Program-made: the position numbers and the translations under genes | The notes under the pieces: model-generated | Databases searched by the model: none | The model's input: only the letters and a program-made list of their open reading frames with translations | Told to the model about the DNA's origin: nothing | Shown here: positions 12,967 through 60,782 of the stretch, one piece after another | How the letters are laid out: the number at the start of each line of letters is the position of its first letter | Position numbering within the stretch: position 1 is the first letter of the stretch | NCBI GenBank assembly: GCA_964016885.1 | Contig: OZ024742.1 | Span: 320,292,001-320,356,000, forward strand | Source of the DNA: Eledone cirrhosa | Lineage: Eukaryota | Length of the DNA stretch: 64,000 nt | Reading direction: 5' to 3'

Positions 12967-13001
<35 letters not shown>

Positions 13002-13061
13002 CCTACCTACCTACCTACCTACCTACCTACCTACCTACCTACCTACCTACCTACCTACCTA
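12806..13061. repeat. (TACC)n/(TATC)n microsatellite
   Basis: Seen directly. Confidence 0.97.
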
Positions 13062-16000: not shown

Positions 16001-16425
16001 ACACCTTTCTCTCTGGCCAACAACTGGTCCGTTTTTCCGATATCATTTAGGAAGAAGGATCAGGATGGAGAGAGAGGTGCTGCACCCCAGTCATTTTTAT
16101 GAAAGGTGGGTGAAAGTGGCGAGAATGGCCCGTGTGAATGGGCCTTCACTCTACATCAGACTATAGGTGAGGAAGATGAAAGACCAAGGGAGCACCCCCT
16201 CTCTGTGCTCCTGAGGAGGTTGCACACTTTTTTTCGGGGGTGTGTGCGACCCCCCAAGGCGCCTCCTCCCTATGGAGGATTTTGTTATAAATTTTATTTT
16301 GTTATATTTTATTTTATTTTTATATTTTGTTATTGCCTCCTCCTTATTGAGGACGCCTTGTTATGTAAACTCCCCCCATTGTACTTGTCCCACTTTTGAT
16401 GCCCTGGTGGCAAATAAAAAGAAAG
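13062..16425 (+). mobile_element. L1/Tx1-clade LINE copy A, 5'-truncated inside the APE domain, inactivated
   Basis: GDWN, SYLDRF, SDH, GPGYWKLN, KSPGLDG, FRPITLLN, KAFDRV, IRQGCPLS, YADD, CPRC..H..HC; TAG stops at ~14187 and ~15452; AATAAAAAGAAA end. Confidence 0.93.
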
Positions 16426-16812
16426 TTATCTATCTATCTACCTACCTACCTACGTACCTACCTATCTCTCTATCTACCTACCTACCTACCTACCTACCTA
16501 CCTACCTACCTACCTACCTACCTACCTACCTACCTACCTATCTCTCTATCTACCTACCTACCTACCTACCTACCTACCTATCTCTCTACCTACCTACCTA
16601 CCTACCTACCTACCTACCTACCTACCTACCTACCTACCTATCTCCCTACCTACCTACCTACCTACCTACCTACCTACCTACCTACCTACCTACCTACCTA
16701 CCTACCTACCTACCTACCTACCTACCTACCTACCTACATGCCTACCTACGTACCTATCTATCTATCTACCTACCTACCTACCTACCTACCTACCTACCTA
16801 CCTATCTATCTA
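16426..16812. repeat. (TACC)n microsatellite between the two Tx1 copies
   Basis: Seen directly. Confidence 0.97.
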
Positions 16813-19800: not shown

Positions 19801-20786
19801 TGGGTCAAGCAAAGACCGAGGAAAATGGGCGACTGGCACATCGAATGTGCTCAGGCGCTCACAGCCCTCTGGCAGGCGGACCCGGCGATCAGTGGAGACT
19901 CCACTTCGTCATTCTATAGAGGGTTGATCCGCAGCAAGTGCGTCGACGTGCTAGGTGAAAGTCTGGGCGTAGAGGAAGACGAACTGGCCAGTCTGTTCGG
20001 TAGGACCTTCCGCCCGAGACCGATGAACAACTTCCAAAAATCCCTGGCCTGGCAGTGCTACCGAGGCGCTCTACCAGTTCGAGACAAGCTCTACAGACAT
20101 GGGCGCCCGAGCAGGGACCCTGCAAAAAAGATCTGTCCGAGGTGCGTGCGAGACGAAGAAACCGTCGCGCACGCATTCATACACTGCCCGGGCGTCACCG
20201 ACCTGTGGGGCTTTGTAGAACGACTATTGTCGCGGGTGGGACCAATCCGGTTGACCACCGAGTCCATTGTCATGATCAAACCGCCACCCTCCTTCAAAAA
20301 CGAAGGAGAGGCCGTTTTCCTTTGTGTGATAGCTATTGCGAAAGAGGTTGTATGTTGGACAAGGTTGAAAGGGCTGAGGTCAGACACCTTTCTCTCCGGC
20401 CAACAACTGATTCTTTTTTACAAATACCACTTTGGAAGAAGAATCAGGATGGAGAGAGAGGTGCTGTACCCCAGCAAGTTTTATGTAAGGTGGGTGAAAG
20501 TGGCGAGAATGGCCCGAGTGAATGGGCCTTCCTCTATATCAGCCTGTAGGTTGAGGAAAAGGAGGAGGAGAGGAAAGGAGTACAAACTCTTCGTACTCCT
20601 GGAGATGAGGGTTGCACACTTTTTCGAGGGTATGTGTTACCCATATGAACTGTCTCCCCCTATTGGGGAAAATCGACTAATTTTTAAATTACATTTGTGA
20701 TAATATTTTACACGTTTTTATTGTATGTAAATTTCCCCCTTCGTATTTGTCCCCTTCTTTTGTGCCCCTGTGGCTAATAAAGAAAC
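16813..20786 (+). mobile_element. L1/Tx1-clade LINE copy B: ORF1 tail plus complete but disrupted ORF2 (APE-RT-CCHC)
   Basis: Pro/Thr-rich ORF end at 17107; ORF2 ATG 17145 MANIRVGYVNVRGL; ~29-bp deletion near 19031 relative to copy A; TAA at ~19525; AATAAAGAAA end. Confidence 0.93.
17145..20700 (+). pseudogene. ORF2 (apurinic endonuclease plus reverse transcriptase) of Tx1 copy B
   Basis: Pieces 17145-~19030, 18928-19527 and 19534-20700 are collinear with copy A. Confidence 0.9.
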
Positions 20787-26839: not shown

Positions 26840-26845
<6 letters not shown>

Positions 26846-27255
26846 TAAGATCAAAAGATGGTTAAAGGAGTTCCATGTATTTTATTATGCGCATTTCAAA
26901 AACAAACATCATCATGCAATAATATTTGTGTTTTCATCAGATAAAACAGGAGAACATGATATGAAGGCTAAAAAACACTTGTGCATAGTGCAGTTTTAAA
27001 TCAACATATAACTGCACTATCCACAAGTGATTTTTAGCCTTCATATCATGTTCTCCTGTTTTATCTGATGAAAACACAAATATTATTGCATGATGTTGTT
27101 TGTTTTTGAAATGCGCATAATAAAATACATGGAACTCCTTTAACCATCTTTTGATCTTATATATTATGTATACTCCAGTCCTACAAACTGTAGAGTGCTT
27201 CTTATCCGATATCTGCATTGCTTTATTGTACTACAATAAAACTCACCTCCAACAT
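26840..27255. mobile_element. Solo fold-back PLE terminal repeat (pLTR), with an HHR in each arm
   Basis: 26843-27008 is the reverse complement of 27011-27162; same family as 53491-53888 and 57218-57625. Confidence 0.9.
27057..27127 (+). ncRNA. Type I hammerhead ribozyme (pLTR family A)
   Basis: TGTTTTAT-CTGATGA-stem II-GAAA-TGCGCA-TA-ATAAAATA; stem I pairs, stem III palindromic ATGCGCAT, AUA cleavage triplet. Confidence 0.85.
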
Positions 27256-27732: not shown

Positions 27733-28002
27733 AATATATATATATAAATATATATATATATAAATATAGTATTAAGGATACTATTTATGGTTATGTATGT
27801 AATAAAGCCTTTTATGGTTATATATTTTTTATACAAACCCTAAACAGTGAAAGATAGTCATTAATTACTCTCTTATTACCAGTAAGATAAATAGCTCAAT
27901 GTAGTAACATCTGTTGCTTTACAGAGCAGTTATATAGAGATTACAATAATCAAAGTTCAGTTTAAATCACCGTAAAACACTAATCACCTTTGAAGACCAA
28001 TT

Positions 28003-29535
28003 ATGGACCCGCAAGGATACGCAAAACAACTTACCATGGGGTCTAGTGACTCGGCGCAGGTCACTGATTTAGTCGGCCTATATTTACTTAACCAAATCCA
28101 TAAGGACCTTCCTTACCTCAGCGGTGGTTTGTATCGCGACGATGCTCTTCTACTTATAGATTATAAAAAATTCAATATAGAAAGAACTAGAAAACTATTG
28201 CACAAAGCATTCAAAAACTATAACCTTAGTATTACCATGGACAAAAACACCAAAAACGTCAACTTCCTAGACGCCACACTCTACCTAGACTCAATGATAT
28301 ATGCACCTTTCCACAAACCTAATGAAAAACTCATCTACGTAGATACCAAGTCTAACCACCCTAGATCTATATTAAACTCTATCTCTAAGGGAGTATCTAA
28401 TAGAATCTCTAATCTTTCCTATGACATAAACACATTTAACAATAACTCCCAATATTATAATCAAGCATTAGCTAGATCAGGCCATAATACAGGGATAGAG
28501 TTCCTACCTACAAAAACGCATAGCTACAACATTATTTCACACAGCATGTCCATGAGAAAATTTAATAATAGGAATAGCAACCACACACACACTAATAGAG
28601 ATGATAACAACAAAAGTAACCCACACTACAGAAATTACCATAGTAACATTAAAGGAAACAATTCACCAGACATAAAAAACAGAAATAGAAGAAGAAATAA
28701 TACATTTTTCAACCCTCCTTTCAATCTAAACGTTTCTACCAACCTACCTAGGGCTTTCTTCTCACTACTGGATAAACACTTCCCATCCGGCCACAAGTAC
28801 CATAGCCTTTTAAACAAAAACACTATTAAAATCTCATACTCCACTACGCCTAACTTGGCATACCACATAGCTAGTAGCAATAAAAGAAAAATTAATTCTT
28901 ACTTCCAACAAACTAAATAACAACAGACGATAAACCTTCAAAATAACATTCAAAATAACATTATAGCAACTAACCATAATATCAATAGAAATAATAGTAT
29001 TAGTGCTAGTGTAAACATTAACGCTGTGAACGACAACCCACATAACCATAACCCTATAGCTAACATCCAAACTTCTACACAGCATATTAACCGGCAGACT
29101 AACACCCAGAATAATTGTAACTGTAGATCAAATAGAACCTGCCCTTTAGATAGAAAAGGCTTAACCAAGGATATCATATACTCATGTACAGTCACAACTA
29201 ACAACTCTTCCGAAACCTATATAGGCTCTACTTCTAACTGCTTCAAAACTAGATACAATTCGCACCTCCACTCTTTCAAAAAACACAGTCCACTTCACTA
29301 TCTAGCTACATACACTATCTAAAAACTAAAAATAAAATATATACACTTAAATGGGAGATGGTAGGTAGTGCAACATCGTACAAACCACCTAATAAATTTT
29401 GTAACCTCTGTCTACTAGAGACCCATACTATCATCTTCTCTAACCATAATCTCCTTAATAAAAAATCAGAAGTGTTCGCATCTTGCCAACACCGCTTCCG
29501 ACACTCTTTCCAAAATTTTAAACCCTATATATAAC
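28003..29535 (+). pseudogene. PLE RT C-terminal half plus GIY-YIG endonuclease (frameshifted)
   Basis: MGSSDSAQVTDLVG, GLYRDD, VNFLD, SNHP, FFNPPF, KISYS; CNCRSNRTCP, IIY..YIGST..FKTRYNSH; later CNLCL. Confidence 0.88.
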
Positions 29536-31347
29536 AATGTCAGACTGGAACCGTCACCACCCCTAGCAAGTAGCATCAGTAGCACACCTTACACCTCATC
29601 TCCACACCCATTTATATACTCTAAAGGTAACAGTGGAAACATTATAGTAACATCTAACCTGGGGATACCCCCATGTACTTCTAATTCTGATACCTCGGCC
29701 GTGGATTACTTAAACTGCATTGCACAAATATATGATTAATATAAACTGTGGACACGGTATTGGTTGTGCTAACATAATCCTGTGCATGGAGTGCCACCAT
29801 GAGATAGATTGACGATTAAGTAAGTAATCTCATTATTATGTGACTATATATTCTATACGATGAGTACAATGAATTATGCACAGGTGATACATGAGTTAGG
29901 AGTTTCTGTTTTGCTTGATGACCTGATTAGTATCTTTTAATGAGAGAACGGGTCCCCGGACCACCGCGGTGATATTTGAATTTTACCGGGGATGCAGTCA
30001 TACAATGACCCGAAACTTACCGGGAGTCTTGTATGATAATAAGACCATTATTAGTAATAAGACCCTTATTAGTAGTGAGACCCATATAATTAATTTTGAA
30101 GTCCGAATCTTCTTATGGATTGTCCGGGTGTGGCACTCCATATTAGATTGTAACCATCATGATATGAACTCCTTTAGTACTTATTAGTAGACTCCACTCT
30201 AATTTGTAGATAAGAAACCTAATTTAATTTATATATGAGATGGGAGTTTATGTATTGCTTGATGACCAGACTGGTGTCTTTATATGGGAGATTTGATCTC
30301 CAGACCACCCTGGAGATATCCAAATTTGCCAGGGATTCGGACATACAATGACCCAGAGCTTACCGGGAGTCATATATAATAATAGGACCATGCCAGATCC
30401 TGCGGGTGGAATTACACTTACAAAGAACATTGATTTGTGAGTCTGACTCTTCTTATAGAATGTTCAGATATGACACCCCTTAATAGAAGGTAATCATCCT
30501 GGTATATACACCTTTAGTACTTCTTAATAGACAACACTGTAACCTATAGATAAGTAACATAAACTAGAAACTAGTTATAACACCATATGATAGGCACTTA
30601 TTTGAAACACGATTAGTGTAATTTAGGATAATAAATTTAACTAAGAAAAACAGCTAGTTACCTCCCCTTACGCATTAACTCCCCTTGGTCACACACACAC
30701 TTCCGGAATATAATATCATCACACAAAACAAAACAACATGATCTATTAATTAAGAATCGACAAGATATGGTTTATAACTTGGTTATATGCTGAACCATCG
30801 TGGATTATATGATAGACCCGTGATCTATATATTGCGACTCATGGATTATGTGAGTGGTGGTGTGCGCGAAGACAGTGATGCTGTTTTGCCTACGATATAA
30901 TATGTTTTATAATATGTTTGATATTTTTGATATTTTGGTGTTTCTCCACATTCGGGACTGTATATCATACAGGTGTATGCGAAAAAATGATTTAATAATT
31001 CAGCCCACATAATAATATCGATTGCCTGCTTCAACTGCCTGACCCTGCAAGTAACAATCTGACGCACTCTAATCCTGTATAAATAAGACACGAGTGCATG
31101 CTACACGTGAGATTGTTTCATACACTGACTACTCTAAACTTTCTTCTTGCTTTATCTTCATAAACTGCCAATGCTTCATTTTTATCTTTATTTTTATTTT
31201 TATTTTTATCCTTTAACCTTTATATGTAAATTGCCATGCTATATCATTTTGATGGATGTCATCCCACTGTGGGTCAATATGTGCATATGTTTTTATATGT
31301 CTCTTGTGTTGAAAAGGAGGTCAAGTATGTTATAGATCACTTAATAG

Positions 31348-31396
31348 TTGCTCCGAAGAATCCAAACCTCGGTTTGGAGGAAACAATTGTAAGCAA
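31348..31396 (+). ncRNA. Type I hammerhead ribozyme (family B) with variant core CCGAAGA
   Basis: TTGCT-CCGAAGA-A-TCCAAACC-TC-GGTTTGGA-G-GAAA-CAATTG-TA-AGCAA. Confidence 0.8.
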
Positions 31397-31690
31397 ATAA
31401 ATGATTTAAACTGAACTTTGATTATTGTAATCTCTCTATATATAAATATATAAATATATAAATGTATAAATGAAAGGTATAAGAAAGTATTGTACCAAGA
31501 AGCCAACAGTATTCCATAATATATAAGTGACTATATATATATAAATATATATATATATAAATATATATATAAATATATATATATATATAAATATATATAT
31601 AAATATATATATATATATAAATATATATATAAATATAAATATATATATATAAATATATATAAATATATATATAAATATATATATATATAA

Positions 31691-41975: not shown

Positions 41976-43626
<1,651 letters not shown>

Positions 43627-43826
43627 NNNNNNNNNNNNNNNNNNNNNNNNNNNNNNNNNNNNNNNNNNNNNNNNNNNNNNNNNNNNNNNNNNNNNNNNNN
43701 NNNNNNNNNNNNNNNNNNNNNNNNNNNNNNNNNNNNNNNNNNNNNNNNNNNNNNNNNNNNNNNNNNNNNNNNNNNNNNNNNNNNNNNNNNNNNNNNNNNN
43801 NNNNNNNNNNNNNNNNNNNNNNNNNN
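43627..43826. other. Assembly gap (200 N)
   Basis: Run of N. Confidence 1.
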
Positions 43827-43918
43827 TATATGTATATGTATATGTATATGTATATATATGTATGTATATGTATATATATATATATGTATGTATATGTATA
43901 TATATATATATATGTATG

Positions 43919-43956
<38 letters not shown>

Positions 43957-43961
<5 letters not shown>

Positions 43962-44121
43962 ATTTAAAACTGCACTATCCACAAGTGTTTTTTAGCCTTC
44001 ATATCATGTTCTCCTGTTTTATCTGATGAAAACACAAATATTATTGCATGATGATGTTTGTTTTTGAAATGCGCATAATAAAATACATGGAACTCCTTTA
44101 ACCATCTTTTGATCTTATATT
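43957..44121 (+). mobile_element. PLE pLTR fragment with HHR family A (core 44023-44077)
   Basis: Matches ~57368-57535; CTGATGA..GAAATGCGCATA. Confidence 0.9.
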
Positions 44122-44179
44122 ATATATATTCATTTCATTCATTTTGTTCCATTCATTTCATTTCATTTCATTTCATTCA

Positions 44180-44523
44180 TTCATTTTGTTTCAATTTATC
44201 GTTTTCGGTATGCCTAACCGATTTAACTCACTCAATATGCAAATTAGGCTGCTCAGCCGTTAATTTTCATAAGGAAAGGAAAGTATATACTTTCGAACGT
44301 TCAACTATCTGGCAGATGGGTAAACGGTGCTGATGATAGCTAACAAGCTTGAAACTAGTACATCGTTCCTGTGTCAGTGTTGAACAAAAAGGTGACGTGG
44401 TTGCCTTAACACCGTATGGCATAAATTCAGGCTGTTCAGTTTGTTTACAAACGAACAAAGCGACGTTAGCGCCGCTAAACTGATACGTGCATATATGTAT
44501 GTGTACCTGTATGCATATGTATA

Positions 44524-44558
<35 letters not shown>

Positions 44559-44999
44559 GTGCATGCTACTGTACGTCTGTATACATATATGTATGTACGT
44601 ATACATGCATACTTACATTTAAGTAAGTGCCATACTAAGAGTGAGAAATGAAATTTCGTTTTCATTTTGTTTCAATTTATCGTTTTCGGTATGCCTAACC
44701 GATTTAACTCACTCAATATGCAAATTAGGCTGCTCAGCCGTTAATTTTCATAAGGAAAGTATATACTTTCGAACGTTCAACTATCTGGCAGATGGGTAAA
44801 CGGTGCTGATGATAGCTAACAAGCTTGAAACTAGTACATCGTTCCTGTGTCAGTGTTGAACAAAAAGGTGACGTGGTTGCCTTAACACCGTATGGCATAA
44901 ATTCAGGCTGTTCAGTTTGTTTACAAACGAACAAAGCGACGTTAGCGCCGCTAAACTGATACGTGCATATATGTATGTGTACCTGTATGCATATGTATA

Positions 45000-45034
<35 letters not shown>

Positions 45035-45475
45035 GTGCATGCTACTGTACGTCTGTATACATATATGTATGTACGTATACATGCATACTTACATTTAAGT
45101 AAGTGCCATACTAAGAGTGAGAAATGAAATTTCGTTTTCATTTTGTTTCAATTTATCGTTTTCGGTATGCCTAACCGATTTAACTCACTCAATATGCAAA
45201 TTAGGCTGCTCAGCCGTTAATTTTCATAAGGAAAGTATATACTTTCGAACGTTCAACTATCTGGCAGATGGGTAAACGGTGCTGATGATAGCTAACAAGC
45301 TTGAAACTAGTACATCGTTCCTGTGTCAGTGTTGAACAAAAAGGTGACGTGGTTGCCTTAACACCGTATGGCATAAATTCAGGCTGTTCAGTTTGTTTAC
45401 AAACGAACAAAGCGACGTTAGCGCCGCTAAACTGATACGTGCATATATGTATGTGTACCTGTATGCATATGTATA

Positions 45476-45510
<35 letters not shown>

Positions 45511-45951
45511 GTGCATGCTACTGTACGTCTGTATACATATATGTATGTACGTATACATGCATACTTACATTTAAGTAAGTGCCATACTAAGAGTGAGAAA
45601 TGAAATTTCGTTTTCATTTTGTTTCAATTTATCGTTTTCGGTATGCCTAACCGATTTAACTCACTCAATATGCAAATTAGGCTGCTCAGCCGTTAATTTT
45701 CATAAGGAAAGTATATACTTTCGAACGTTCAACTATCTGGCAGATGGGTAAACGGTGCTGATGATAGCTAACAAGCTTGAAACTAGTACATCGTTCCTGT
45801 GTCAGTGTTGAACAAAAAGGTGACGTGGTTGCCTTAACACCGTATGGCATAAATTCAGGCTGTTCAGTTTGTTTACAAACGAACAAAGCGACGTTAGCGC
45901 CGCTAAACTGATACGTGCATATATGTATGTGTACCTGTATGCATATGTATA

Positions 45952-45986
<35 letters not shown>

Positions 45987-46427
45987 GTGCATGCTACTGT
46001 ACGTCTGTATACATATATGTATGTACGTATACATGCATACTTACATTTAAGTAAGTGCCATACTAAGAGTGAGAAATGAAATTTCGTTTTCATTTTGTTT
46101 CAATTTATCGTTTTCGGTATGCCTAACCGATTTAACTCACTCAATATGCAAATTAGGCTGCTCAGCCGTTAATTTTCATAAGGAAAGTATATACTTTCGA
46201 ACGTTCAACTATCTGGCAGATGGGTAAACGGTGCTGATGATAGCTAACAAGCTTGAAACTAGTACATCGTTCCTGTGTCAGTGTTGAACAAAAAGGTGAC
46301 GTGGTTGCCTTAACACCGTATGGCATAAATTCAGGCTGTTCAGTTTGTTTACAAACGAACAAAGCGACGTTAGCGCCGCTAAACTGATACGTGCATATAT
46401 GTATGTGTACCTGTATGCATATGTATA

Positions 46428-46462
<35 letters not shown>

Positions 46463-46903
46463 GTGCATGCTACTGTACGTCTGTATACATATATGTATGT
46501 ACGTATACATGCATACTTACATTTAAGTAAGTGCCATACTAAGAGTGAGAAATGAAATTTCGTTTTCATTTTGTTTCAATTTATCGTTTTCGGTATGCCT
46601 AACCGATTTAACTCACTCAATATGCAAATTAGGCTGCTCAGCCGTTAATTTTCATAAGGAAAGTATATACTTTCGAACGTTCAACTATCTGGCAGATGGG
46701 TAAACGGTGCTGATGATAGCTAACAAGCTTGAAACTAGTACATCGTTCCTGTGTCAGTGTTGAACAAAAAGGTGACGTGGTTGCCTTAACACCGTATGGC
46801 ATAAATTCAGGCTGTTCAGTTTGTTTACAAACGAACAAAGCGACGTTAGCGCCGCTAAACTGATACGTGCATATATGTATGTGTACCTGTATGCATATGT
46901 ATA

Positions 46904-46938
<35 letters not shown>

Positions 46939-47379
46939 GTGCATGCTACTGTACGTCTGTATACATATATGTATGTACGTATACATGCATACTTACATTT
47001 AAGTAAGTGCCATACTAAGAGTGAGAAATGAAATTTCGTTTTCATTTTGTTTCAATTTATCGTTTTCGGTATGCCTAACCGATTTAACTCACTCAATATG
47101 CAAATTAGGCTGCTCAGCCGTTAATTTTCATAAGGAAAGTATATACTTTCGAACGTTCAACTATCTGGCAGATGGGTAAACGGTGCTGATGATAGCTAAC
47201 AAGCTTGAAACTAGTACATCGTTCCTGTGTCAGTGTTGAACAAAAAGGTGACGTGGTTGCCTTAACACCGTATGGCATAAATTCAGGCTGTTCAGTTTGT
47301 TTACAAACGAACAAAGCGACGTTAGCGCCGCTAAACTGATACGTGCATATATGTATGTGTACCTGTATGCATATGTATA

Positions 47380-47410
<31 letters not shown>

Positions 47411-47851
47411 GTGCATGCTACTGTACGTCTGTATACATATATGTATGTACGTATACATGCATACTTACATTTAAGTAAGTGCCATACTAAGAGTGAGAAA
47501 TGAAATTTCGTTTTCATTTTGTTTCAATTTATCGTTTTCGGTATGCCTAACCGATTTAACTCACTCAATATGCAAATTAGGCTGCTCAGCCGTTAATTTT
47601 CATAAGGAAAGTATATACTTTCGAACGTTCAACTATCTGGCAGATGGGTAAACGGTGCTGATGATAGCTAACAAGCTTGAAACTAGTACATCGTTCCTGT
47701 GTCAGTGTTGAACAAAAAGGTGACGTGGTTGCCTTAACACCGTATGGCATAAATTCAGGCTGTTCAGTTTGTTTACAAACGAACAAAGCGACGTTAGCGC
47801 CGCTAAACTGATACGTGCATATATGTATGTGTACCTGTATGCATATGTATA

Positions 47852-47886
<35 letters not shown>

Positions 47887-48327
47887 GTGCATGCTACTGT
47901 ACGTCTGTATACATATATGTATGTACGTATACATGCATACTTACATTTAAGTAAGTGCCATACTAAGAGTGAGAAATGAAATTTCGTTTTCATTTTGTTT
48001 CAATTTATCGTTTTCGGTATGCCTAACCGATTTAACTCACTCAATATGCAAATTAGGCTGCTCAGCCGTTAATTTTCATAAGGAAAGTATATACTTTCGA
48101 ACGTTCAACTATCTGGCAGATGGGTAAACGGTGCTGATGATAGCTAACAAGCTTGAAACTAGTACATCGTTCCTGTGTCAGTGTTGAACAAAAAGGTGAC
48201 GTGGTTGCCTTAACACCGTATGGCATAAATTCAGGCTGTTCAGTTTGTTTACAAACGAACAAAGCGACGTTAGCGCCGCTAAACTGATACGTGCATATAT
48301 GTATGTGTACCTGTATGCATATGTATA

Positions 48328-48362
<35 letters not shown>

Positions 48363-48803
48363 GTGCATGCTACTGTACGTCTGTATACATATATGTATGT
48401 ACGTATACATGCATACTTACATTTAAGTAAGTGCCATACTAAGAGTGAGAAATGAAATTTCGTTTTCATTTTGTTTCAATTTATCGTTTTCGGTATGCCT
48501 AACCGATTTAACTCACTTAATATGCAAATTAGGCTGCTCAGCCGTTAATTTTCATAAGGAAAGTATATACTTTCGAACGTTCAACTATCTGGCAGATGGG
48601 TAAACGGTGCTGATGATAGCTAACAAGCTTGAAACTAGTACATCGTTCCTGTGTCAGTGTTGAACAAAAAGGTGACGTGGTTGCCTTAACACCGTATGGC
48701 ATAAATTCAGGCTGTTCAGTTTGTTTACAAACGAACAAAGCGACGTTAGCGCCGCTAAACTGATACGTGCATATATGTATGTGTACCTGTATGCATATGT
48801 ATA

Positions 48804-48838
<35 letters not shown>

Positions 48839-49279
48839 GTGCATGCTACTGTACGTCTGTATACATATATGTATGTACGTATACATGCATACTTACATTT
48901 AAGTAAGTGCCATACTAAGAGTGAGAAATGAAATTTCGTTTTCATTTTGTTTCAATTTATCGTTTTCGGTATGCCTAACCGATTTAACTCACTCAATATG
49001 CAAATTAGGCTGCTCAGCCGTTAATTTTCATAAGGAAAGTATATACTTTCGAACGTTCAACTATCTGGCAGATGGGTAAACGGTGCTGATGATAGCTAAC
49101 AAGCTTGAAACTAGTACATCGTTCCTGTGTCAGTGTTGAACAAAAAGGTGACGTGGTTGCCTTAACACCGTATGGCATAAATTCAGGCTGTTCAGTTTGT
49201 TTACAAACGAACAAAGCGACGTTAGCGCCGCTAAACTGATACGTGCATATATGTATGTGTACCTGTATGCATATGTATA

Positions 49280-49314
<35 letters not shown>

Positions 49315-49755
49315 GTGCATGCTACTGTACGTCTGTATACATATATGTATGTACGTATACATGCATACTTACATTTAAGTAAGTGCCATACTAAGAGTGA
49401 GAAATGAAATTTCGTTTTCATTTTGTTTCAATTTATCGTTTTCGGTATGCCTAACCGATTTAACTCACTCAATATGCAAATTAGGCTGCTCAGCCGTTAA
49501 TTTTCATAAGGAAAGTATATACTTTCGAACGTTCAACTATCTGGCAGATGGGTAAACGGTGCTGATGATAGCTAACAAGCTTGAAACTAGTACATCGTTC
49601 CTGTGTCAGTGTTGAACAAAAAGGTGACGTGGTTGCCTTAACACCGTATGGCATAAATTCAGGCTGTTCAGTTTGTTTACAAACGAACAAAGCGACGTTA
49701 GCGCCGCTAAACTGATACGTGCATATATGTATGTGTACCTGTATGCATATGTATA

Positions 49756-49790
<35 letters not shown>

Positions 49791-50231
49791 GTGCATGCTA
49801 CTGTACGTCTGTATACATATATGTATGTACGTATACATGCATACTTACATTTAAGTAAGTGCCATACTAAGAGTGAGAAATGAAATTTCGTTTTCATTTT
49901 GTTTCAATTTATCGTTTTCGGTATGCCTAACCGATTTAACTCACTCAATATGCAAATTAGGCTGCTCAGCCGTTAATTTTCATAAGGAAAGTATATACTT
50001 TCGAACGTTCAACTATCTGGCAGATGGGTAAACGGTGCTGATGATAGCTAACAAGCTTGAAACTAGTACATCGTTCCTGTGTCAGTGTTGAACAAAAAGG
50101 TGACGTGGTTGCCTTAACACCGTATGGCATAAATTCAGGCTGTTCAGTTTGTTTACAAACGAACAAAGCGACGTTAGCGCCGCTAAACTGATACGTGCAT
50201 ATATGTATGTGTACCTGTATGCATATGTATA

Positions 50232-50266
<35 letters not shown>

Positions 50267-50707
50267 GTGCATGCTACTGTACGTCTGTATACATATATGC
50301 ATGTACGTATACATGCATACTTACATTTAAGTAAGTGCCATACTAAGAGTGAGAAATGAAATTTCGTTTTCATTTTGTTTCAATTTATCGTTTTCGGTAT
50401 GCCTAACCGATTTAACTCACTCAATATGCAAATTAGGCTGCTCAGCCGTTAATTTTCATAAGGAAAGTATATACTTTCGAACGTTCAACTATCTGGCAGA
50501 TGGGTAAACGGTGCTGATGATAGCTAACAAGCTTGAAACTAGTACATCGTTCCTGTGTCAGTGTTGAACAAAAAGGTGACGTGGTTGCCTTAACACCGTA
50601 TGGCATAAATTCAGGCTGTTCAGTTTGTTTACAAACGAACAAAGCGACGTTAGCGCCGCTAAACTGATACGTGCATATATGTATGTGTACCTGTATGCAT
50701 ATGTATA

Positions 50708-50742
<35 letters not shown>

Positions 50743-51183
50743 GTGCATGCTACTGTACGTCTGTATACATATATGTATGTACGTATACATGCATACTTAC
50801 ATTTAAGTAAGTGCCATACTAAGAGTGAGAAATGAAATTTCGTTTTCATTTTGTTTCAATTTATCGTTTTCGGTATGCCTAACCGATTTAACTCACTCAA
50901 TATGCAAATTAGGCTGCTCAGCCGTTAATTTTCATAAGGAAAGTATATACTTTCGAACGTTCAACTATCTGGCAGATGGGTAAACGGTGCTGATGATAGC
51001 TAACAAGCTTGAAACTAGTACATCGTTCCTGTGTCAGTGTTGAACAAAAAGGTGACGTGGTTGCCTTAACACCGTATGGCATAAATTCAGGCTGTTCAGT
51101 TTGTTTACAAACGAACAAAGCGACGTTAGCGCCGCTAAACTGATACGTGCATATATGTATGTGTACCTGTATGCATATGTATA

Positions 51184-51218
<35 letters not shown>

Positions 51219-51659
51219 GTGCATGCTACTGTACGTCTGTATACATATATGTATGTACGTATACATGCATACTTACATTTAAGTAAGTGCCATACTAAGA
51301 GTGAGAAATGAAATTTCGTTTTCATTTTGTTTCAATTTATCGTTTTCGGTATGCCTAACCGATTTAACTCACTCAATATGCAAATTAGGCTGCTCAGCCG
51401 TTAATTTTCATAAGGAAAGTATATACTTTCGAACGTTCAACTATCTGGCAGATGGGTAAACGGTGCTGATGATAGCTAACAAGCTTGAAACTAGTACATC
51501 GTTCCTGTGTCAGTGTTGAACAAAAAGGTGACGTGGTTGCCTTAACACCGTATGGCATAAATTCAGGCTGTTCAGTTTGTTTACAAACGAACAAAGCGAC
51601 GTTAGCGCCGCTAAACTGATACGTGCATATATGTATGTGTACCTGTATGCATATGTATA

Positions 51660-51694
<35 letters not shown>

Positions 51695-52135
51695 GTGCAT
51701 GCTACTGTACGTCTGTATACATATATGTATGTACGTATACATGCATACTTACATTTAAGTAAGTGCCATACTAAGAGTGAGAAATGAAATTTCGTTTTCA
51801 TTTTGTTTCAATTTATCGTTTTCGGTATGCCTAACCGATTTAACTCACTCAATATGCAAATTAGGCTGCTCAGCCGTTAATTTTCATAAGGAAAGTATAT
51901 ACTTTCGAACGTTCAACTATCTGGCAGATGGGTAAACGGTGCTGATGATAGCTAACAAGCTTGAAACTAGTACATCGTTCCTGTGTCAGTGTTGAACAAA
52001 AAGGTGACGTGGTTGCCTTAACACCGTATGGCATAAATTCAGGCTGTTCAGTTTGTTTACAAACGAACAAAGCGACGTTAGCGCCGCTAAACTGATACGT
52101 GCATATATGTATGTGTACCTGTATGCATATGTATA

Positions 52136-52170
<35 letters not shown>

Positions 52171-52611
52171 GTGCATGCTACTGTACGTCTGTATACATAT
52201 ATGTATGTACGTATACATGCATACTTACATTTAAGTAAGTGCCATACTAAGAGTGAGAAATGAAATTTCGTTTTCATTTTGTTTCAATTTATCGTTTTCG
52301 GTATGCCTAACCGATTTAACTCACTCAATATGCAAATTAGGCTGCTCAGCCGTTAATTTTCATAAGGAAAGTATATACTTTCGAACGTTCAACTATCTGG
52401 CAGATGGGTAAACGGTGCTGATGATAGCTAACAAGCTTGAAACTAGTACATCGTTCCTGTGTCAGTGTTGAACAAAAAGGTGACGTGGTTGCCTTAACAC
52501 CGTATGGCATAAATTCAGGCTGTTCAGTTTGTTTACAAACGAACAAAGCGACGTTAGCGCCGCTAAACTGATACGTGCATATATGTATGTGTACCTGTAT
52601 GCATATGTATA

Positions 52612-52653
<42 letters not shown>

Positions 52654-53091
52654 CATGCTACTGTACGTCTGTATACATATATGTATGTACGTATACATGC
52701 ATACTTACATTTAAGTAAGTGCCATACTAAGAGTGAGAAATGAAATTTCGTTTTCATTTTGTTTCAATTTATCGTTTTCGGTATGCCTAACCGATTTAAC
52801 TCACTCAATATGCAAATTAGGCTGCTCAGCCGTTAATTTTCATAAGGAAAGTATATACTTTCGAACGTTCAACTATCTGGCAGATGGGTAAACGGTGCTG
52901 ATGATAGCTAACAAGCTTGAAACTAGTACATCGTTCCTGTGTCAGTGTTGAACAAAAAGGTGACGTGGTTGCCTTAACACCGTATGGCATAAATTCAGGC
53001 TGTTCAGTTTGTTTACAAACGAACAAAGCGACGTTAGCGCCGCTAAACTGATACGTGCATATATGTATGTGTACCTGTATGCATATGTATA

Positions 53092-53126
<35 letters not shown>

Positions 53127-53242
53127 GTGCATGCTACTGTACGTCTGTATACATATATGTATGTACGTATACATGCATACTTACATTTAAGTAAGTGCCA
53201 TACTAAGAGTGAGAAATGAAATTTCGTTTTCATTTTGTTTCA

Positions 53243-53248
<6 letters not shown>
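44180..53248 (+). repeat. Tandem array of 19 x 476-bp monomers, each with an HHR (retrozyme-like satellite)
   Basis: ORF-track period 476 (472, 480 and 481 in three units); every unit has AACGGTG-CTGATGA-TAGCTAACAAGCTT-GAAA-CTAG-TA-CATCGTT. Confidence 0.95.
44299..44385 (+). ncRNA. Type I hammerhead ribozyme (family D), first monomer; recurs every ~476 bp
   Basis: Core CTGATGA 44330-36, GAAA 44351-54, GUA cleavage after 44360; stem I AACGGTG/CATCGTT extended by CTGGCA/TGTCAG and GTTCAAC/GTTGAAC; stem II AGCT/AGCT; palindromic ACTAGT stem III. Confidence 0.9.
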
Positions 53249-53322
<74 letters not shown>

Positions 53323-53377
53323 ATGTATATATATATGTATATATATATGTATATATATATATATATGTATGTATATG

Positions 53378-53452
<75 letters not shown>

Positions 53453-53457
53453 GTATG

Positions 53458-53489
<32 letters not shown>

Positions 53490-53614
53490 ATGTAGGAGGT
53501 GAGTTTTATTGTAGTACAATAAAGCAATGCAGATATCGGATAAGAAGCACTCTACAGTTTGTGGGACTGGAGTATGCATAATATAAGATCAAAAGATGGT
53601 TAAAGGAGTTCAAT

Positions 53615-53687
53615 ATATTTTATTATGCGCATTTCAAAAACAAACATCATCAAACAATAATATTTGTGTTTTCATCAGATAAAACAG
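53615..53687 (-). ncRNA. HHR family A in the 3' pLTR, sense to the PLE ORF
   Basis: TCATCAG at 53672-78 and TATGCGCATTTC upstream on the + strand. Confidence 0.85.
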
Positions 53688-54685
53688 GAGAACATGATAT
53701 GAAGGCTAAAAAAACACTTGTTGATAGTGCAGTTTTAAATCAACATATGAAAAGTGGTTTTAGATTGATGTGTGATATTGGGAAAAATATTTTAGAGGGG
53801 GGGAGAGAAAAGGATGAAAAGGGAAGGAGATGAGAGGGAGAGATGGGTGATAGAGAGAAAGAGATAGTTTTTATAACTGAGAGGAGATATATTTTATATA
53901 GAGGGGTTGAAAACCGTTGGAAGATACTGTATAAATTAAAAATTTTGAAAATTAACGAAGGGAGGATATGTGCGAGGAAAAAATATATTATATTTAGGGA
54001 GGGGGGGGTGGAAAGGATGAAAAAAAGGGGAGGAGATGAGAGTGAAAGTGGAAAGGGAGAGATGGGTGATAGAGAGAAAGAGATAGTTTTTATAACTGAG
54101 AAAAAGATATAATGTTTTAATATAGAGAGGTTGGGAACCGTTGGAAGATAATGTATAAATTAAAGGAATTTGAAAATTAACAAAGGGAAATTATGTATGG
54201 AGATAGAGAGAAAAAAAAAAAATAATTGTGGGTGAATATTCTAACGTCAAAAGAAGAAATGTAGGAATTTTAAAATTAGCAAAGAGAAAAAGTTTATGTG
54301 TAGAAGGATTTGAGAAAAATAATGTGAAGTTAAAGTTTGTATATTGAATTCATATGTATTAATAATGAGTTCGTTGATGGGGAGAAAAAAATAATAATAA
54401 ATTAAGGATGAAATTGAGATTAAAAAGATTTATGATAGAGAGAAAAAATAATAATGATTGCGGATGAATACTCAAAATGTCAAAAACAAATGTTATTGTT
54501 TTACGAGGAGATAGAATGAGGGTGATGAGTAAACGAGTATTATAGAGTGTATAATGCCCTTTAAAGTAAGGTAGATGGGTATATTTTAAAGAATATATGA
54601 GTATATATTAAAAAAATATATAATAATAAATTAAGGATGAAATTGAGATTAAAAAGATTTATGATAGAGGGAAAAAAATAATAAT

Positions 54686-54860
54686 TGTTTCTACTATTGG
54701 CACAAGGCCAGAAATTACCCAGTACATTACTGGTACTTTATTTTATCGACCCCGTAAGGATGAAAGGCAAAGTTAACCTCGGCGGGATTTGAACTCAGAA
54801 TAGCAAGGGCCGTAACTCTATGCATCAAAGCATGGCGTCCGACCCTCTACCGATACTGCC
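54686..54860 (-). mobile_element. SINE S1 inserted in the PLE 3' UTR
   Basis: Interrupts one copy of a duplicated UTR segment; empty site at ~54455. Confidence 0.92.
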
Positions 54861-55054
54861 ATGATTGCGGATGAATATTCAAAATGTCAAAAACAAATGT
54901 TATTGTTTTACGAGAAGATAGGATGAGGGTAATGAGTAAACGAGTATTATAGAGTGTATAATGCCCTTTAAAGTAAGGTAGATGGGTATATTTTAAAGAG
55001 GTGTATGTATATGTGCCTTTGAGAAAAGATTCTAAATTGATAAAGAATTGAATA

Positions 55055-57214
55055 TTAACTGTATACTTTGTGAAAAGTTCTATGGAATTTATGCAGGCAG
55101 ATGGAAAACAAATCCGAGCGTCTATTTATTATGGATTCTAGGTTAGAGATAATGGTAAATTTTTCATTTAGGCAGAGATTACAGATTTTAGATAGAGAGC
55201 TGTTCAAGTACGAGGATGCAGAAGAAATCTTTTTCCAAAAGATGTTATATTTAATGTTTTTGTCTTTTAAGGACCATATGAGTTCTGAGAGAGCAGTGTT
55301 AGTTCTTTTAAGTTTGTATTTGAAAGATGAATGATGATTATAGAGACGAGCTTTAAAAGAGGTGGAAGTGGAGCCAAAATAGGTGAAGGAATTGGTGCTA
55401 GTTATAATTTTACATTCATAAATTAAGTTTTTATCGAGGCAATGGTTGTTGAGAGGACATTTATTTTTAATGCGGCAGTTGCAATTAGAGAGATTATTAA
55501 TGAGTGATCTAGTGTTATCTATAGAAGGAATTGGATTGGAGAAGTTGTTTGCGATAGGAATAATAGGAATAATAGTTTCTTGATTTAGAGTTGGATTATG
55601 AACATTTAGCGAAGTTGTGTTTGACGTTGCATTTGGGTTTACAGAAGTTAGCCTAGGGTTTACAATGACGTCAGGAGTACTATTATTGTTATTATGAAAT
55701 TCAATATTGGAAGGAAGAGATTTAGTATTTAATATTTTGTTGTTGTGTTTAGAGATGATGTTGGAAATATTGGAGGATGTAGAATACGAAAATTTGATGG
55801 TGTGTTTGTTAAATATTTTACTATAGATATGTGAGGGAGGGAAGCATTTATTTAAGGCACTAAAAAATAATTTAGGAATATTGTTATTAATAGAGATGGA
55901 GAAAGGAGCATTATACCAGATTATGTTTTTGTATCTAGGTCTTTTATTAAAATTATTGGAATGGTTATGATTAAATATTCTACTGTAAGTTTTCCTAGAA
56001 TTTGTTTCTTTATTATATTTGATTTTATCTGGATAGCCGGCTTTAGAAAGTGCGTTATTATAGTAATTGGCGTTAGCATCAAAGATGTTTTTATTAGAAG
56101 ATATGTTAGATATTCTATTTCCAATATTATTAACTATAGCATTCTTGATATTGGTAGGATGGTTAGATTTAAAGTTAACATAATTAAGATTCTCATTGTT
56201 TTTATGGTAAGGGTAATATAGGCCAGTGTCAAGATTAAGAGATACATCCAAGAAATTAGCTAGTTTGGTACTATTATCAAATTCAATTTTTAGGTTATGT
56301 TGGTTAAAGAGATTACGTATATTGTTCTTAATAATATTAAGTTTAACTATATTGCAATTTAGGATAGTAAAGAGTTCATCGTCACGATAAATTCCACCGC
56401 GAAGTTGAGGAATTTTCCGACTCAAAGAGTTCAAAATGAAGATACCAATTAAATCAGTCAATTGGGATGAATCGGATGCTCCCATTGTGATGTCGAAGTT
56501 GTTAGAGGTATCGGCTCTGGTCCAATATTCGTTGTTGAACTCTAGGATGGTTTTACGTGCGGTGAGGATGATGTGAAGTTCATCTGTGGTGATGTCAGAA
56601 TATTTAAGTGCGAAAGATAGAGCATTATTGAGAAGTGAAGGCGAAATGGAGGAATAGTAGCTGGCAATATCGAATTGAATAAATTTTAGTTTGTTTTTAT
56701 TATCCAATTTGTTGAACCAGCCAATCACTTCAGAAGTACCAAACCATAAATTTAGGTTTAAAGAAGAGCAATTAGAACTAACCTGTGGGATAATCCTATC
56801 CAAGATGGCTTTACTAACAACCCCCAGATCAGATTTAGAGGGGGCGATTAATCTAACAGGTAGTTCAGTGCGAAAATTGTTTTTGTGATCCTTGAGATTT
56901 ATCCTCGGAGTTCTTGGGAGGAATGGTTCGGTCTTTTTTTCAATGCCAAGTTTTGACATAATCTCATAGGCTTCAAGGTTTATGCATTCTAAATTTTCAT
57001 GGTTGGTTTTACGATACTTTTTCCTAAGTTCCTTTAGGATAAGGTTGTTATAATTATCCTTGGAAATACCATATAGGTTATTGGTTTTGTCAGAGTGGAC
57101 TAAAACATTTTTTGAGGAATTTAGGTTAGAGATTGTGTTCTTGAGATTTACAAGGTGCTCTTGTCCTTTGTAAGGGTATCTCTTGAATTTAAGATTTTTT
57201 ATAATTTTAGTTAA
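55055..57214 (-). CDS. PLE reverse transcriptase plus GIY-YIG endonuclease, open frame, 5'-truncated
   Basis: 634-aa ORF extends upstream without stop (..VHSDKTNNLY..); KDHK, VRLI, FDIASYYSSI, MGASDS, GIYRDD, NFLDV, SNHP, CNCRIKNKCP, LIY..YFGST, CNLCL, CLH. Confidence 0.9.
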   Translation of the reverse strand, partial: LTKIIKNLKFKRYPYKGQEHLVNLKNTISNLNSSKNVLVHSDKTNNLYGISKDNYNNLILKELRKKYRKTNHENLECINLEAYEIMSKLGIEKKTEPFLPRTPRINLKDHKNNFRTELPVRLIAPSKSDLGVVSKAILDRIIPQVSSNCSSLNLNLWFGTSEVIGWFNKLDNKNKLKFIQFDIASYYSSISPSLLNNALSFALKYSDITTDELHIILTARKTILEFNNEYWTRADTSNNFDITMGASDSSQLTDLIGIFILNSLSRKIPQLRGGIYRDDELFTILNCNIVKLNIIKNNIRNLFNQHNLKIEFDNSTKLANFLDVSLNLDTGLYYPYHKNNENLNYVNFKSNHPTNIKNAIVNNIGNRISNISSNKNIFDANANYYNNALSKAGYPDKIKYNKETNSRKTYSRIFNHNHSNNFNKRPRYKNIIWYNAPFSISINNNIPKLFFSALNKCFPPSHIYSKIFNKHTIKFSYSTSSNISNIISKHNNKILNTKSLPSNIEFHNNNNSTPDVIVNPRLTSVNPNATSNTTSLNVHNPTLNQETIIPIIPIANNFSNPIPSIDNTRSLINNLSNCNCRIKNKCPLNNHCLDKNLIYECKIITSTNSFTYFGSTSTSFKARLYNHHSSFKYKLKRTNTALSELIWSLKDKNIKYNIFWKKISSASSYLNSSLSKICNLCLNEKFTIISNLESIINRRSDLFSICLHKFHRTFHKVYS

Positions 57215-57429
57215 TTAATCTCCTCTCAGTTATAAAAACTATCTCTTTCTCTCTATCACCCATCTCTCCCTCTCATCTCCTTCCCTTTTCATCCTTTTCT
57301 CCCCACCCCCCCTCTCTAAATAAAATATTTTTCCCAATATCACACATCAATCTAAAACCACTTTTCATATGTTGATTTAAAACTGCACTATCAACAAGTG
57401 TTTTTTTTAGCCTTCATATCATGTTCTCC

Positions 57430-57500
57430 TGTTTTATCTGATGAAAACACAAATATTATTGTTTGATGATGTTTGTTTTTGAAATGCGCATAATAAAATA
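57430..57500 (+). ncRNA. HHR family A in the inverted 5' pLTR
   Basis: CTGATGA 57438-44, GAAATGCGCATA 57481-92. Confidence 0.85.
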
Positions 57501-57621
57501 TATTGAACTCCTTTAACCATCTTTTGATCTTATATTATGCATACTCCAGTCCCACAAACTGTAGAGTGCTTCCTATCCGATATCTGCATTGCTTTATTGT
57601 ACTACAATAAAACTCACCTCC

Positions 57622-59527
<1,906 letters not shown>

Positions 59528-60782
59528 ACCTGGCTAAGACCAAAGTGCTAGTTTGTAGGAAAGAAAACAAGGCGGCGGTCCCTTCTGGGAAATGGTCGTG
59601 CTCGGTGTGTAGGAAAGGCGTAGGTAGAAACTCCATTTTATGTCCTAAATGCAAAGTATGGGTGCATAAAAGATGTAGTGGGATCACAGGTAAGCTAACT
59701 AAGAACATAGATTTTACATGTGGCCGGTGCTCTGGTGCAATAAGTAGCAGCAAGTGCCCACAAACTACTAGCTCTTTCAATTGCGCAGAGGGTTCTATAG
59801 AAATAGTGGACAGCTTCCGTTATCTGGGCGATAAAATCAGCAGTGGGGGAGGGTGCTCTGAAAGTACTGTAGCTAGAGTCAGAACTGGTTGGAAAAAGTT
59901 CAGAGAGCTTATACCACTATTAGCTGCTAAAGGGTTCTCACTAAAAATGAAAGGCAGGTTGTACGATGCCTGCATACGAACAGCAATGCTGCATGGCAGT
60001 GAGACCTGGGCATTGTGTGCAGAGGATATACGCAGACTAGAGAGGAACGAAGCTTGCATGCTCCGCTGGATGTGTAACAGTAATATACGTGAACGGCAAA
60101 GCATAAACGAACTAAGGAAAAAATTAGAGATAAGAGGGATCAGATGTTGTTTACTCGAGAGAAGGCTACGTTGGTATGGACACGTGATGCGCATGAAAGT
60201 CGATAGCTGTATAACAAAGTGCAGGGCAATAAAGATAGACGGTAGTCACGGAATAGGCAGACCTAGAAAAACCTGGGACGAGCTGATAAACTCCGACATC
60301 ACACACTTACACCTCTCCAAGACAATGTCACTGGACCGAGACCTTTGGCGGTACTCAGTAACAGAGAAGACCCGCCTTACCTAAATATATAGTAAAACCT
60401 ACTCCAGCCAGTAGGCATCTCTAACAAAATACACCCCGTCCCACCACCCCCACCCCCACCCGATCCACACCACCCCGTTCTATGTAAAGTTATGTTGGTG
60501 CCGCGCCTTCGAGGCCGAAACAAATGAGATCGTGTAGGTGTCACGACAAAAAAACACACAGTCCACGCTGTAATGTGGCCGTGTAGGCAACACGGTAAAA
60601 ACCTCCCAGACCCACACTGTAAATGTGGTTGGTGTTAGGAAGGGCATCCAACTGTAGAAAACCTGCCAGACAGTCCTATGCGAGCAAGACAATCACTCTT
60701 GCCTCAAGTGGGACTACCCCCGTCCAAACCCATGCAAGCGTGGAACACGGACGTTAAACGTTGATGATGATGATGATGATGA
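59528..60782 (+). mobile_element. 5'-truncated RTE-group LINE (RT C-terminus with PHD-like finger, 3' UTR, (GAT)n tail)
   Basis: [52 protein letters not shown]. Confidence 0.9.

What the first reader, a model, noticed from the sequence alone, without database searches (positions are those of the whole stretch)
43957..57625. Retrozyme array bracketed by pLTRs of a Hydra-type PLE with an open RT/GIY-YIG frame: possible helper-parasite pair
Seen: a + strand pLTR fragment ends at GATCTTATATTAT just before the array, and after a 240-bp TA tract the same pLTR family starts on the - strand, belonging to a PLE with an uninterrupted frame. Both elements end in (TA)n and both use palindromic-stem-III HHRs, but their sequences are unrelated. 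Known: PLEs are proposed but unproven partners of metazoan HHR repeats. Inference: this PLE family mobilises the 476-nt RNA in trans.
Basis: partly seen in the sequence, partly recalled or inferred. Interest (0 to 1): 0.8.

Follow-up and report, generated by a model that had tools for sequence, protein, structure and literature searches.

The report
Retrozyme array beside a Penelope element
A 19-copy repeat carrying a predicted self-cutting RNA has the insertion scars of Penelope-type jumping genes at about a thousand places in this animal genome, so such genes likely move it, but its position next to this particular Penelope element is likely a coincidence of both landing in TA repeats.

Summary
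The parts are real: a 19 x 476-bp hammerhead array, pLTR pieces on both sides, and a Hydra-type PLE (family F1) with a 719-codon open frame. That copy is 5'-truncated. The bracket is not evidence of a pair. The two flanks come from different F1 subfamilies. F1 pLTRs lie across 1 of 124 array-bordering TA tracts, against 17 of 1,318 control tract sides (p=1). Other PLE families abut arrays too. The monomer shares no sequence with F1 and lacks the end hairpin that F1 and a sister family share. What holds up is genome-wide. At least 980 sites end at one fixed point, and 47 of 59 sampled insertions carry an inverted second arm ending about 60 nt upstream, both in (TA)n. That is the PLE 'tail' footprint, so a PLE very likely mobilises this retrozyme; which one is unknown, and F1 (young, many intact frames) is one candidate of many. 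Each unit also carries a U6-like promoter module. The scan noted the footprint and the promoter before on other DNA of this genome. Known class, new member.

The parts
41976..43957 (.). Long (TA)n target tract left of the cluster, with a 200-N assembly gap (about 43627-43826)
43954..44123 (+). Single arm of a short F1 pLTR subfamily (F1b), ending at the tail-less end (end B); hammerhead core at 44023
   Evidence: subfamily has 4,286 exact 64-mer matches, mostly short inverted pairs
44124..44179 (+). Junction: a few nt of TA, then a (TTCAT)n stutter built from the monomer's first bases; unique in the genome
44180..53248 (+). Retrozyme array, 19 x 476 bp, single-armed, ending at the family's fixed end A (monomer position 25)
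44717..44765 (+). U6-like promoter module in unit 2 (12-mer with octamer ATGCAAAT, then a TATA box 43 nt on); repeated in every unit; also one arm of a predicted RNA hairpin
44792..44854 (+). Type-I hammerhead of unit 2 (core at 44806, stem III CTAG, predicted cut after 44836), canonical type with a stem I internal loop
   Evidence: Rfam HH9 18.5 bits, below its gathering score
45092..45156 (+). 'Tail' between the two fixed insertion ends (end B at monomer position 436-442, end A at position 25), shown for units 2-3
53246..53489 (.). 244-bp (TA)n tract shared by the array end and the PLE end
53490..53888 (-). 3' pLTR of the F1 Hydra-type PLE, hammerhead core at 53678, ending at end A
53889..55054 (-). 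F1 3' UTR; 54685-54860 is an insertion of a dispersed repeat absent from the tandem copies L090/L091
55055..57214 (-). 5'-truncated open frame (residues 82-800 of the family protein): telomerase-like RT, CxCx5C linker, C-terminal GIY-YIG-type endonuclease (by motif)
57218..57626 (+). Inverted 5' pLTR arm of the same insertion; hammerhead core at 57438; bulged end hairpin at about 57543-57569
57625..59527 (.). 1.9-kb (TA)n tract right of the PLE

Best explanation
The array is one insertion of a young, protein-free retrozyme family that a Penelope-like element likely copies into (TA)n in trans, and the two flanking pLTRs are likely separate insertions into the same long TA region, so they do not identify the helper. 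Shown: the fixed ends, the inverted arms, the TA targets and the background-level adjacency. Inferred steps: (1) each unit is transcribed from its own snRNA-type promoter just ahead of the hammerhead; (2) read-through multimers are cut by dimeric hammerheads and may circularise; (3) a PLE RT-endonuclease nicks both strands of a TA tract and starts two cDNAs at two fixed sites about 60 nt apart (end A, end B), each pairing a terminal TA or AT with the target; (4) each RT runs on through up to 20 units, on a circle or a long uncut multimer; (5) the two cDNAs join head to head by a few nt of microhomology. In the window only the end-A arm was kept, and its far end was patched to the edge of an earlier F1b end with a locally templated stutter. 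The helper is one of the genome's many TA-targeting PLE families and more likely not F1.
For: 980 exact matches to the end-A junction. All 6 arrays found by a DNA search that did not select for ends have end A on one arm and end B on an inverted arm, both in TA. 47 of 59 further insertions have an inverted end-B arm in TA at positions 433-443; this end was not selected by the search. F1 and family B copies show the same two-ended inverted build, which PMC11167929 ties to two RT start sites and calls unique to PLEs. 38 of 51 inversion junctions overlap by 1-9 nt. Inner arm ends are not enriched at the predicted cut (2 of 102, p=0.69) or the predicted start (4 of 102, p=0.30), which fits a circular or long uncut template. 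F1 pLTR across an array-bordering tract: 1 of 124, against 17 of 1,318 control sides, p=1; family B 3 of 124 against 26 of 1,318. The left junction occurs once in the genome. The same close abutment occurs with other families (L133, L142, L146, old copy in L150). Two junctions (L107, L126) hold exact copies of neighbouring DNA, so direct joints can arise by local repair. F1 and family B tails are homologous (score 62 against 23 +/- 4, 0 of 300 shuffles) and share a bulged hairpin downstream of both ends; the monomer scores at background against both and lacks the motif. RT fragments resembling other PLE clades lie beside arrays.
Against: Absence of adjacency cannot exclude F1, because trans-mobilisation does not need adjacency. 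F1 is the right age: the window frame is 99.5-99.8% identical to 29 of 29 compared copies, and the youngest monomers are identical over 301 bp at 6 other loci. The left junction joins two rare single arms in the same orientation with only 5-6 nt of TA, which also fits a template jump. The monomer has a looser ACT..AGTGC hairpin at end B, though at a different offset and not in the older subfamilies. No helper was found by homology in 1.41 Mb of fetched DNA, which is 0.05% of the genome (output partly cut). Cleavage, circles and transcription were not tested. The sampled arrays nearly all come from contig C1.
Confidence: 0.72

Rival explanations
1. F1 is the helper, but the bracket in this window is still a coincidence.
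For: F1 is young and has many intact 821-codon frames among the 99 best matches; it targets TA and makes the same two-ended insertions; its age matches the youngest monomer subfamily; F1 has older subfamilies, as the monomer clan does.
Against: No shared end sequence, and the F1/family-B end hairpin is absent from the monomer; tail about 60 nt against 88 nt. Many other Hydra families and other PLE clades are present.
Confidence: 0.14
2. The window records one event: F1 RT started at monomer end A, rolled 19 units, stuttered, then jumped to an F1b RNA at that RNA's own start site (end B) and copied it to its 5' end. This would make it a true helper-parasite chimera.
For: Both pieces are single-armed and in the same orientation, the join falls exactly at F1 end B, only 5-6 nt of TA intervene, and the stutter was seen at no other array. 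F1b is abundant and fairly young (4,286 exact 64-mers), and its short arms usually start where this piece starts.
Against: End B is where F1 arms normally meet TA, so a prior insertion gives the same sequence. Short TA remnants at the 5' side of single arms are common (L053, L059, L133), and the same geometry occurs with other families. The junction is unique. The right-hand PLE is another subfamily and is separated by 244 bp of TA.
Confidence: 0.08
3. The repeat is not moved by a PLE: it is a satellite amplified at DNA level, or a parasite of a LINE, and TA ends reflect general microsatellite association.
For: Units within one array are nearly identical (16 of 18 cores the same), as local amplification would give. 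LINEs are abundant in the window.
Against: About 1,000 dispersed sites with two fixed ends and a head-to-head inversion; the same ends in subfamilies only 70-77% identical; PMC8557442 says the tail and inverted build are not seen in LINE TPRT. No poly(A) end.
Confidence: 0.06

Closest known systems
Metazoan non-LTR retrozymes (Cervera and de la Pena 2020, PMC7229834, passages read; Li, Clavereau and Pollet 2026, bioRxiv 10.64898/2026.07.22.740005, parts 1-3 of 5 read)
   Same: Tandem non-coding units of a few hundred bp, low GC, one type-I hammerhead per unit, dispersed dimers to multimers, co-existence with PLEs; both papers propose PLEs as the mobiliser.
   Different: Slightly longer unit (476 bp) with an internal TA palindrome. 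The monomer shows no homology to the neighbouring pLTR, unlike the 24 of 57 Xenopus families that match known elements. The evidence here is the insertion footprint, which the parts read do not use.
Hydra clade of C-terminal EN+ Penelope-like elements (Craig et al. 2021, PMC8557442, section 11 and passages read)
   Same: DKT motif, divergent RT motif 4, CxCx5C linker, no CCHH, CxxC and CxH motifs in the endonuclease, hammerhead in the pLTR, (TA)n targets, tandem and inverted copies.
   Different: Unit about 3.9 kb against 'generally <3 kb'; RW motif reads RWT; tail 88 nt against 30-40 nt quoted for other clades.
Poseidon PLE of Anolis (Frangieh et al. 2024, PMC11167929, parts 1-2 of 4 read)
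   Same: Two RT start sites inside the RNA that define a genomic tail; nicking of both strands in AT-rich DNA.
   Different: Shown there for an autonomous element on its own RNA; here the footprint is on a non-coding RNA unrelated to any pLTR found.
Non-autonomous Chlamys PLEs such as MRC1 (PMC8557442, passages read)
   Same: Non-coding, multicopy head-to-tail insertions attributed to PLE machinery.
   Different: Those resemble their autonomous partner at the 3' end; this monomer does not resemble F1 or family B.
Newt satellite 2 (Coats, Zhang and Epstein 1994; paper not held, seen only as cited in PMC2220036)
   Same: Hammerhead repeat with an internal snRNA-type promoter.
   Different: Reported as Pol II; here the module matches host U6 upstream words best, with a spacing 4-6 nt shorter, and the polymerase is unknown.

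Membership tests
Non-LTR retrozyme | Short tandem non-coding units, each with a type-I hammerhead | tested here: met
   19 of 19 units carry the core; stems kept across 8 subfamily copies, 5 of 76 predicted pairs with double changes; Rfam HH9 match only below cut-off
Non-LTR retrozyme | Dispersed copies from dimers to multimers, no LTR, PBS or ORF | tested here: met
   980 end junctions; 60 loci from partial units to about 20 units; no frame of 150 codons in the array
Non-LTR retrozyme | Self-cleavage and linear or circular monomer RNA in tissue | not testable with these tools
   Needs RNA assays; see Tried and rejected for the run search
Non-autonomous PLE-mobilised element | Two fixed ends (tail) and inverted 5'-truncated arm in microsatellite targets | tested here: met
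   6 of 6 and 47 of 59 insertions
Non-autonomous derivative of family F1 | Sequence or end-motif similarity to the F1 pLTR | tested here: not met
   Scores at shuffle level; end hairpin motif absent
   1 of 124 against 17 of 1,318; no young monomer joined to any of 68 PLE loci
Non-autonomous derivative of family F1 | F1 protein uses the monomer RNA as template | not testable with these tools
   Needs in vitro assay
Hydra clade PLE (right-hand element) | Telomerase-like RT | tested here: met
   Model pLDDT 74.6; top Foldseek hits are TERT, E 3e-9; VIA Z 17.9, rmsd 5.4, 354 aligned, to yeast telomerase
Hydra clade PLE (right-hand element) | DKT in place of DKG, divergent RT motif 4, CxCx5C linker, no CCHH, CxxC and CxH | tested here: met
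   Read in the translation against PMC8557442 section 11
Hydra clade PLE (right-hand element) | N-terminal RWK motif | tested here: inconclusive
   Intact copies read RWT, sister families RWR and RWK; the window copy has lost this part
Hydra clade PLE (right-hand element) | C-terminal GIY-YIG endonuclease | tested here: inconclusive
   Motif and strand-strand-helix pattern present, but no Pfam hit and the fold lists cover only the RT
Hydra clade PLE (right-hand element) | Hammerhead in pLTR and (TA)n insertion | tested here: met
Hydra clade PLE (right-hand element) | Phylogenetic placement with reference Hydra proteins | not tested
   No named reference sequences were at hand; supplementary files of PMC8557442 were not opened
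snRNA-type (U6-like) internal promoter | Host U6 upstream words at similar spacing | tested here: inconclusive
   12-mer identical to that at about -77 of U6 locus L186; octamer-to-TATA 43 against 47-49 nt; pattern found only in three hammerhead repeat families and U6 promoters in 1.41 Mb (pattern derived from them); also a hairpin arm

The most novel reading that the evidence does not exclude
F1 is the retrozyme's real helper and the left junction is a frozen template jump from the retrozyme RNA to an F1 RNA: a named, still-active PLE-retrozyme pair in which a sequence-unrelated circular RNA with its own U6-like promoter is recognised by structure alone.
Probability: 0.1. Interest if true: 0.75.

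Novelty: new member of a known kind. Interest (0 to 1): 0.4.

Why it matters
Which enzyme moves animal retrozymes is an open question; the papers read argue from co-occurrence and pLTR homology. Here the insertions themselves carry the PLE two-start footprint at about a thousand young sites, with nucleotide-level start points, and intact candidate proteins exist in the same genome. That makes the question directly testable in vitro. The window does not name the partner, and the scan has already recorded the footprint and the promoter on other DNA of this genome, so this finding adds mainly a measured negative: neighbours in TA tracts are not evidence of a helper.

Tried and rejected
Cross-organism test. 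The monomer is held by 20 listed runs, 12 with half or more of its words, under 11 or more organism codes. Laying four of them on the F1 frame and pLTR gave cover in 28 and 29 of 30 bins for X6 and X7, but only short pieces under 90% alike in X4 and X5 (5 and 3 bins), although these hold 0.79 and 0.72 of the monomer's words. Contigs show presence, not absence, so this is a lead only. The matching test for family B in those runs was not obtained, so the comparison between candidate helpers stays open. No RNA holder was listed, which says nothing on expression. Pfam found nothing for F1 or family B; PDB sequence searches found nothing meaningful; the single-sequence fold was unusable (pLDDT 33.5). 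Rfam on the whole window gave only microRNA look-alikes of TA repeats among the 150 of 256 rows listed. A genome-wide count of short-tract adjacency was not obtained; the adjacency figure rests on 66 loci (740 kb). The first end-B count was faulty, since it matched forward arms, and was replaced. Of the 12 of 59 loci without an end-B call there, 2 have an inverted arm by BLAST (L119, L139), 3 run into a gap or off the fetched stretch (L155, L159, L161) and 7 are single-armed; L117 was left out for orientation. End A in TA (59 of 59) is partly selected by the search pattern. The fold z of -9.7 for the whole monomer is inflated by the TA palindrome; without it z is -4.4. L146, a family-B frame joined head to head with a monomer arm, was considered as a chimera naming family B; it is one case, its outer end is lost at a LINE, and local repair makes such joints elsewhere. 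A search for a parent pLTR homologous to the monomer found only related repeat families. A depletion of T runs as a Pol III sign was judged too weak and not computed.
Full report
Observation. The window is G000:C3:320292001-320356000 of a 3.0-Gb animal genome. The array at 44180-53248 has 19 units of 476 bp; 16 of 18 compared cores are identical. Every unit has a type-I hammerhead core with stem III CTAG, and five pLTR pieces in the window have one with stem III TGCGCA. The right-hand element is a pLTR at 53490-53888 (-), a 3' UTR, a 719-codon frame at 55055-57214 (-) and an inverted pLTR at 57218-57626 (+). The left piece ends at 44123 and is followed by a few TA and a TTCAT stutter before the array.

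The PLE. An alignment-based model of the frame (23 sequences, pLDDT 74.6) matches telomerase RT best. Its motifs fit the Hydra clade as described in PMC8557442 section 11: DKT, a divergent motif 4, CxCx5C, no CCHH, CxxC and CxH. The endonuclease is identified by motif only. The family (F1) is young: all 99 scored matches are 98-100% identical, many with 821-codon frames, and the window frame is 99.5-99.8% identical to 29 compared copies. The window copy lacks the first 81 residues and has an inverted pLTR upstream, so it is probably not itself a source. The pLTR end has 10,049 exact matches. The left piece belongs to another subfamily, F1b, with 4,286 exact 64-mer matches, mostly short inverted pairs.

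The repeat across the genome. The end-A junction has 980 exact matches. Six arrays found by a DNA search all have one arm ending at monomer position 25 and an inverted arm ending near 436-442, both running into TA. In 60 more loci of 10 kb, 47 of 59 scored have the inverted end-B arm in TA and 7 are single-armed. 38 of 51 inversion junctions overlap by 1-9 nt, and the 102 inner ends show no peak at the predicted cut or start. Older subfamilies, 70-77% identical, keep the same ends. F1 and family B copies are built the same way. PMC11167929 shows in vitro that a PLE starts at two internal sites that define such a tail, and PMC8557442 states that this build is not seen with LINEs. PLE mobilisation is therefore a strong inference, not a demonstration.

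Is F1 the partner? None of the six arrays has an F1 pLTR in 20-30 kb, and none of 30 end-A loci has one within 1.5 kb (three overlap the six). Nine of 60 loci hold an F1-type pLTR somewhere, but one shares a tract. Over 66 loci, F1 lies across 1 of 124 array-bordering tracts and 17 of 1,318 control tract sides (p=1); family B gives 3 of 124 and 26 of 1,318. At the control rate about 0.2 doubly bracketed arrays are expected for F1 alone (980 x 0.013 squared, my arithmetic), and more once long tracts and the many other families are allowed for. Of 68 PLE loci, 3 have a monomer-clan match within 1.5 kb and none is joined. The left junction occurs once. Single arms abut other families just as closely: a family-B-like pLTR in L133, another hammerhead element in L142, a family-B frame in L146. 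L107 and L126 have exact copies of neighbouring DNA at the joint. F1 and family B share homologous tails with a bulged hairpin after each end; the monomer does not. Fragments resembling Neptune, Nematis and other PLE types (clade names by my recall of their motifs) and many Hydra families lie next to arrays. Against my reading: trans-mobilisation needs no adjacency, F1 is the right age, and the left junction joins two rare single arms exactly at an F1 start site.

Promoter. Monomer positions 62-73 equal the 12-mer at about -77 of a host U6 gene, with near matches in two other U6 types; three of seven distinct U6 upstream sequences lack it at that place, and U1 and U2 genes lack it. A TATA box follows 43 nt on, against 47-49 in U6. 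Related modules sit 87-100 nt before the core in other hammerhead repeat families but not in F1 or family-B pLTRs. In 1.41 Mb the combined pattern hit only such repeats and U6 promoters. The predicted start, position 135-140, is at the base of stem I. The octamer is also a predicted hairpin arm, so RNA structure may explain part of its conservation. PMC2220036 cites an snRNA-type promoter for newt satellite 2.

Known and new. The class is known (PMC7229834), and a 2026 preprint argues for PLE origin from co-occurrence and pLTR homology. PMC4209133 describes palindromic stem III as common to most metazoan hammerheads, so that shared trait does not link the two elements. My paper searches listed no paper that, by title or the parts read, uses the tail-and-inversion footprint for retrozymes; subscription papers and supplements were not seen. 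The scan recorded the footprint, the end hairpins and the promoter before on other DNA of this genome; these notes are not independent support.

Verdict. Real parts, a known kind of element, good evidence for PLE mobilisation in general, and no support from this window for the named pair. Interest 0.4.

Noticed in passing
window 26843-27255: Short inverted F1b pLTR pair inside a 1.7-kb TA tract, one arm at end B and one at end A. Such pairs, with arms starting near pLTR position 150, are common (6 among 20 loci) and may be a non-autonomous mini-element of F1.
   Followed up: partly
window 27935-31440: Decayed copy of another Hydra-type family; its pLTR hammerhead has a variant core (CCGAAGA at 31353) with palindromic stem III.
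   Followed up: partly
window 37727 (-): Canonical type-I hammerhead of an unrelated repeat, preceded by three octamer-like words and a TATA box.
   Followed up: partly
L038:1550-2290, L144:1-470, L225:100-600: A distant relative of the monomer with the same stem III, promoter module, end architecture and inverted arms.
   Followed up: partly
L146 (G000:C1:252578788-252588787): Family-B Hydra frame joined head to head to a monomer arm through about 11 nt that resemble a common dispersed repeat; possible chimera.
   Followed up: partly
L187:150 and 1919: A second octamer-plus-TATA module in the tandem U6 repeat unit, with no Rfam family behind it at gathering score.
   Followed up: partly
window 396-6019: 5.6-kb degenerate 35-39-bp minisatellite giving long spurious frames.
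   Followed up: no
window 9316-20700 and 59528-60384: Several LINE-type frames and fragments.
   Followed up: no
runs X1-X14: The monomer is held at near identity under at least 11 organism codes, so the young subfamily spans several related organisms or samples.
   Followed up: partly
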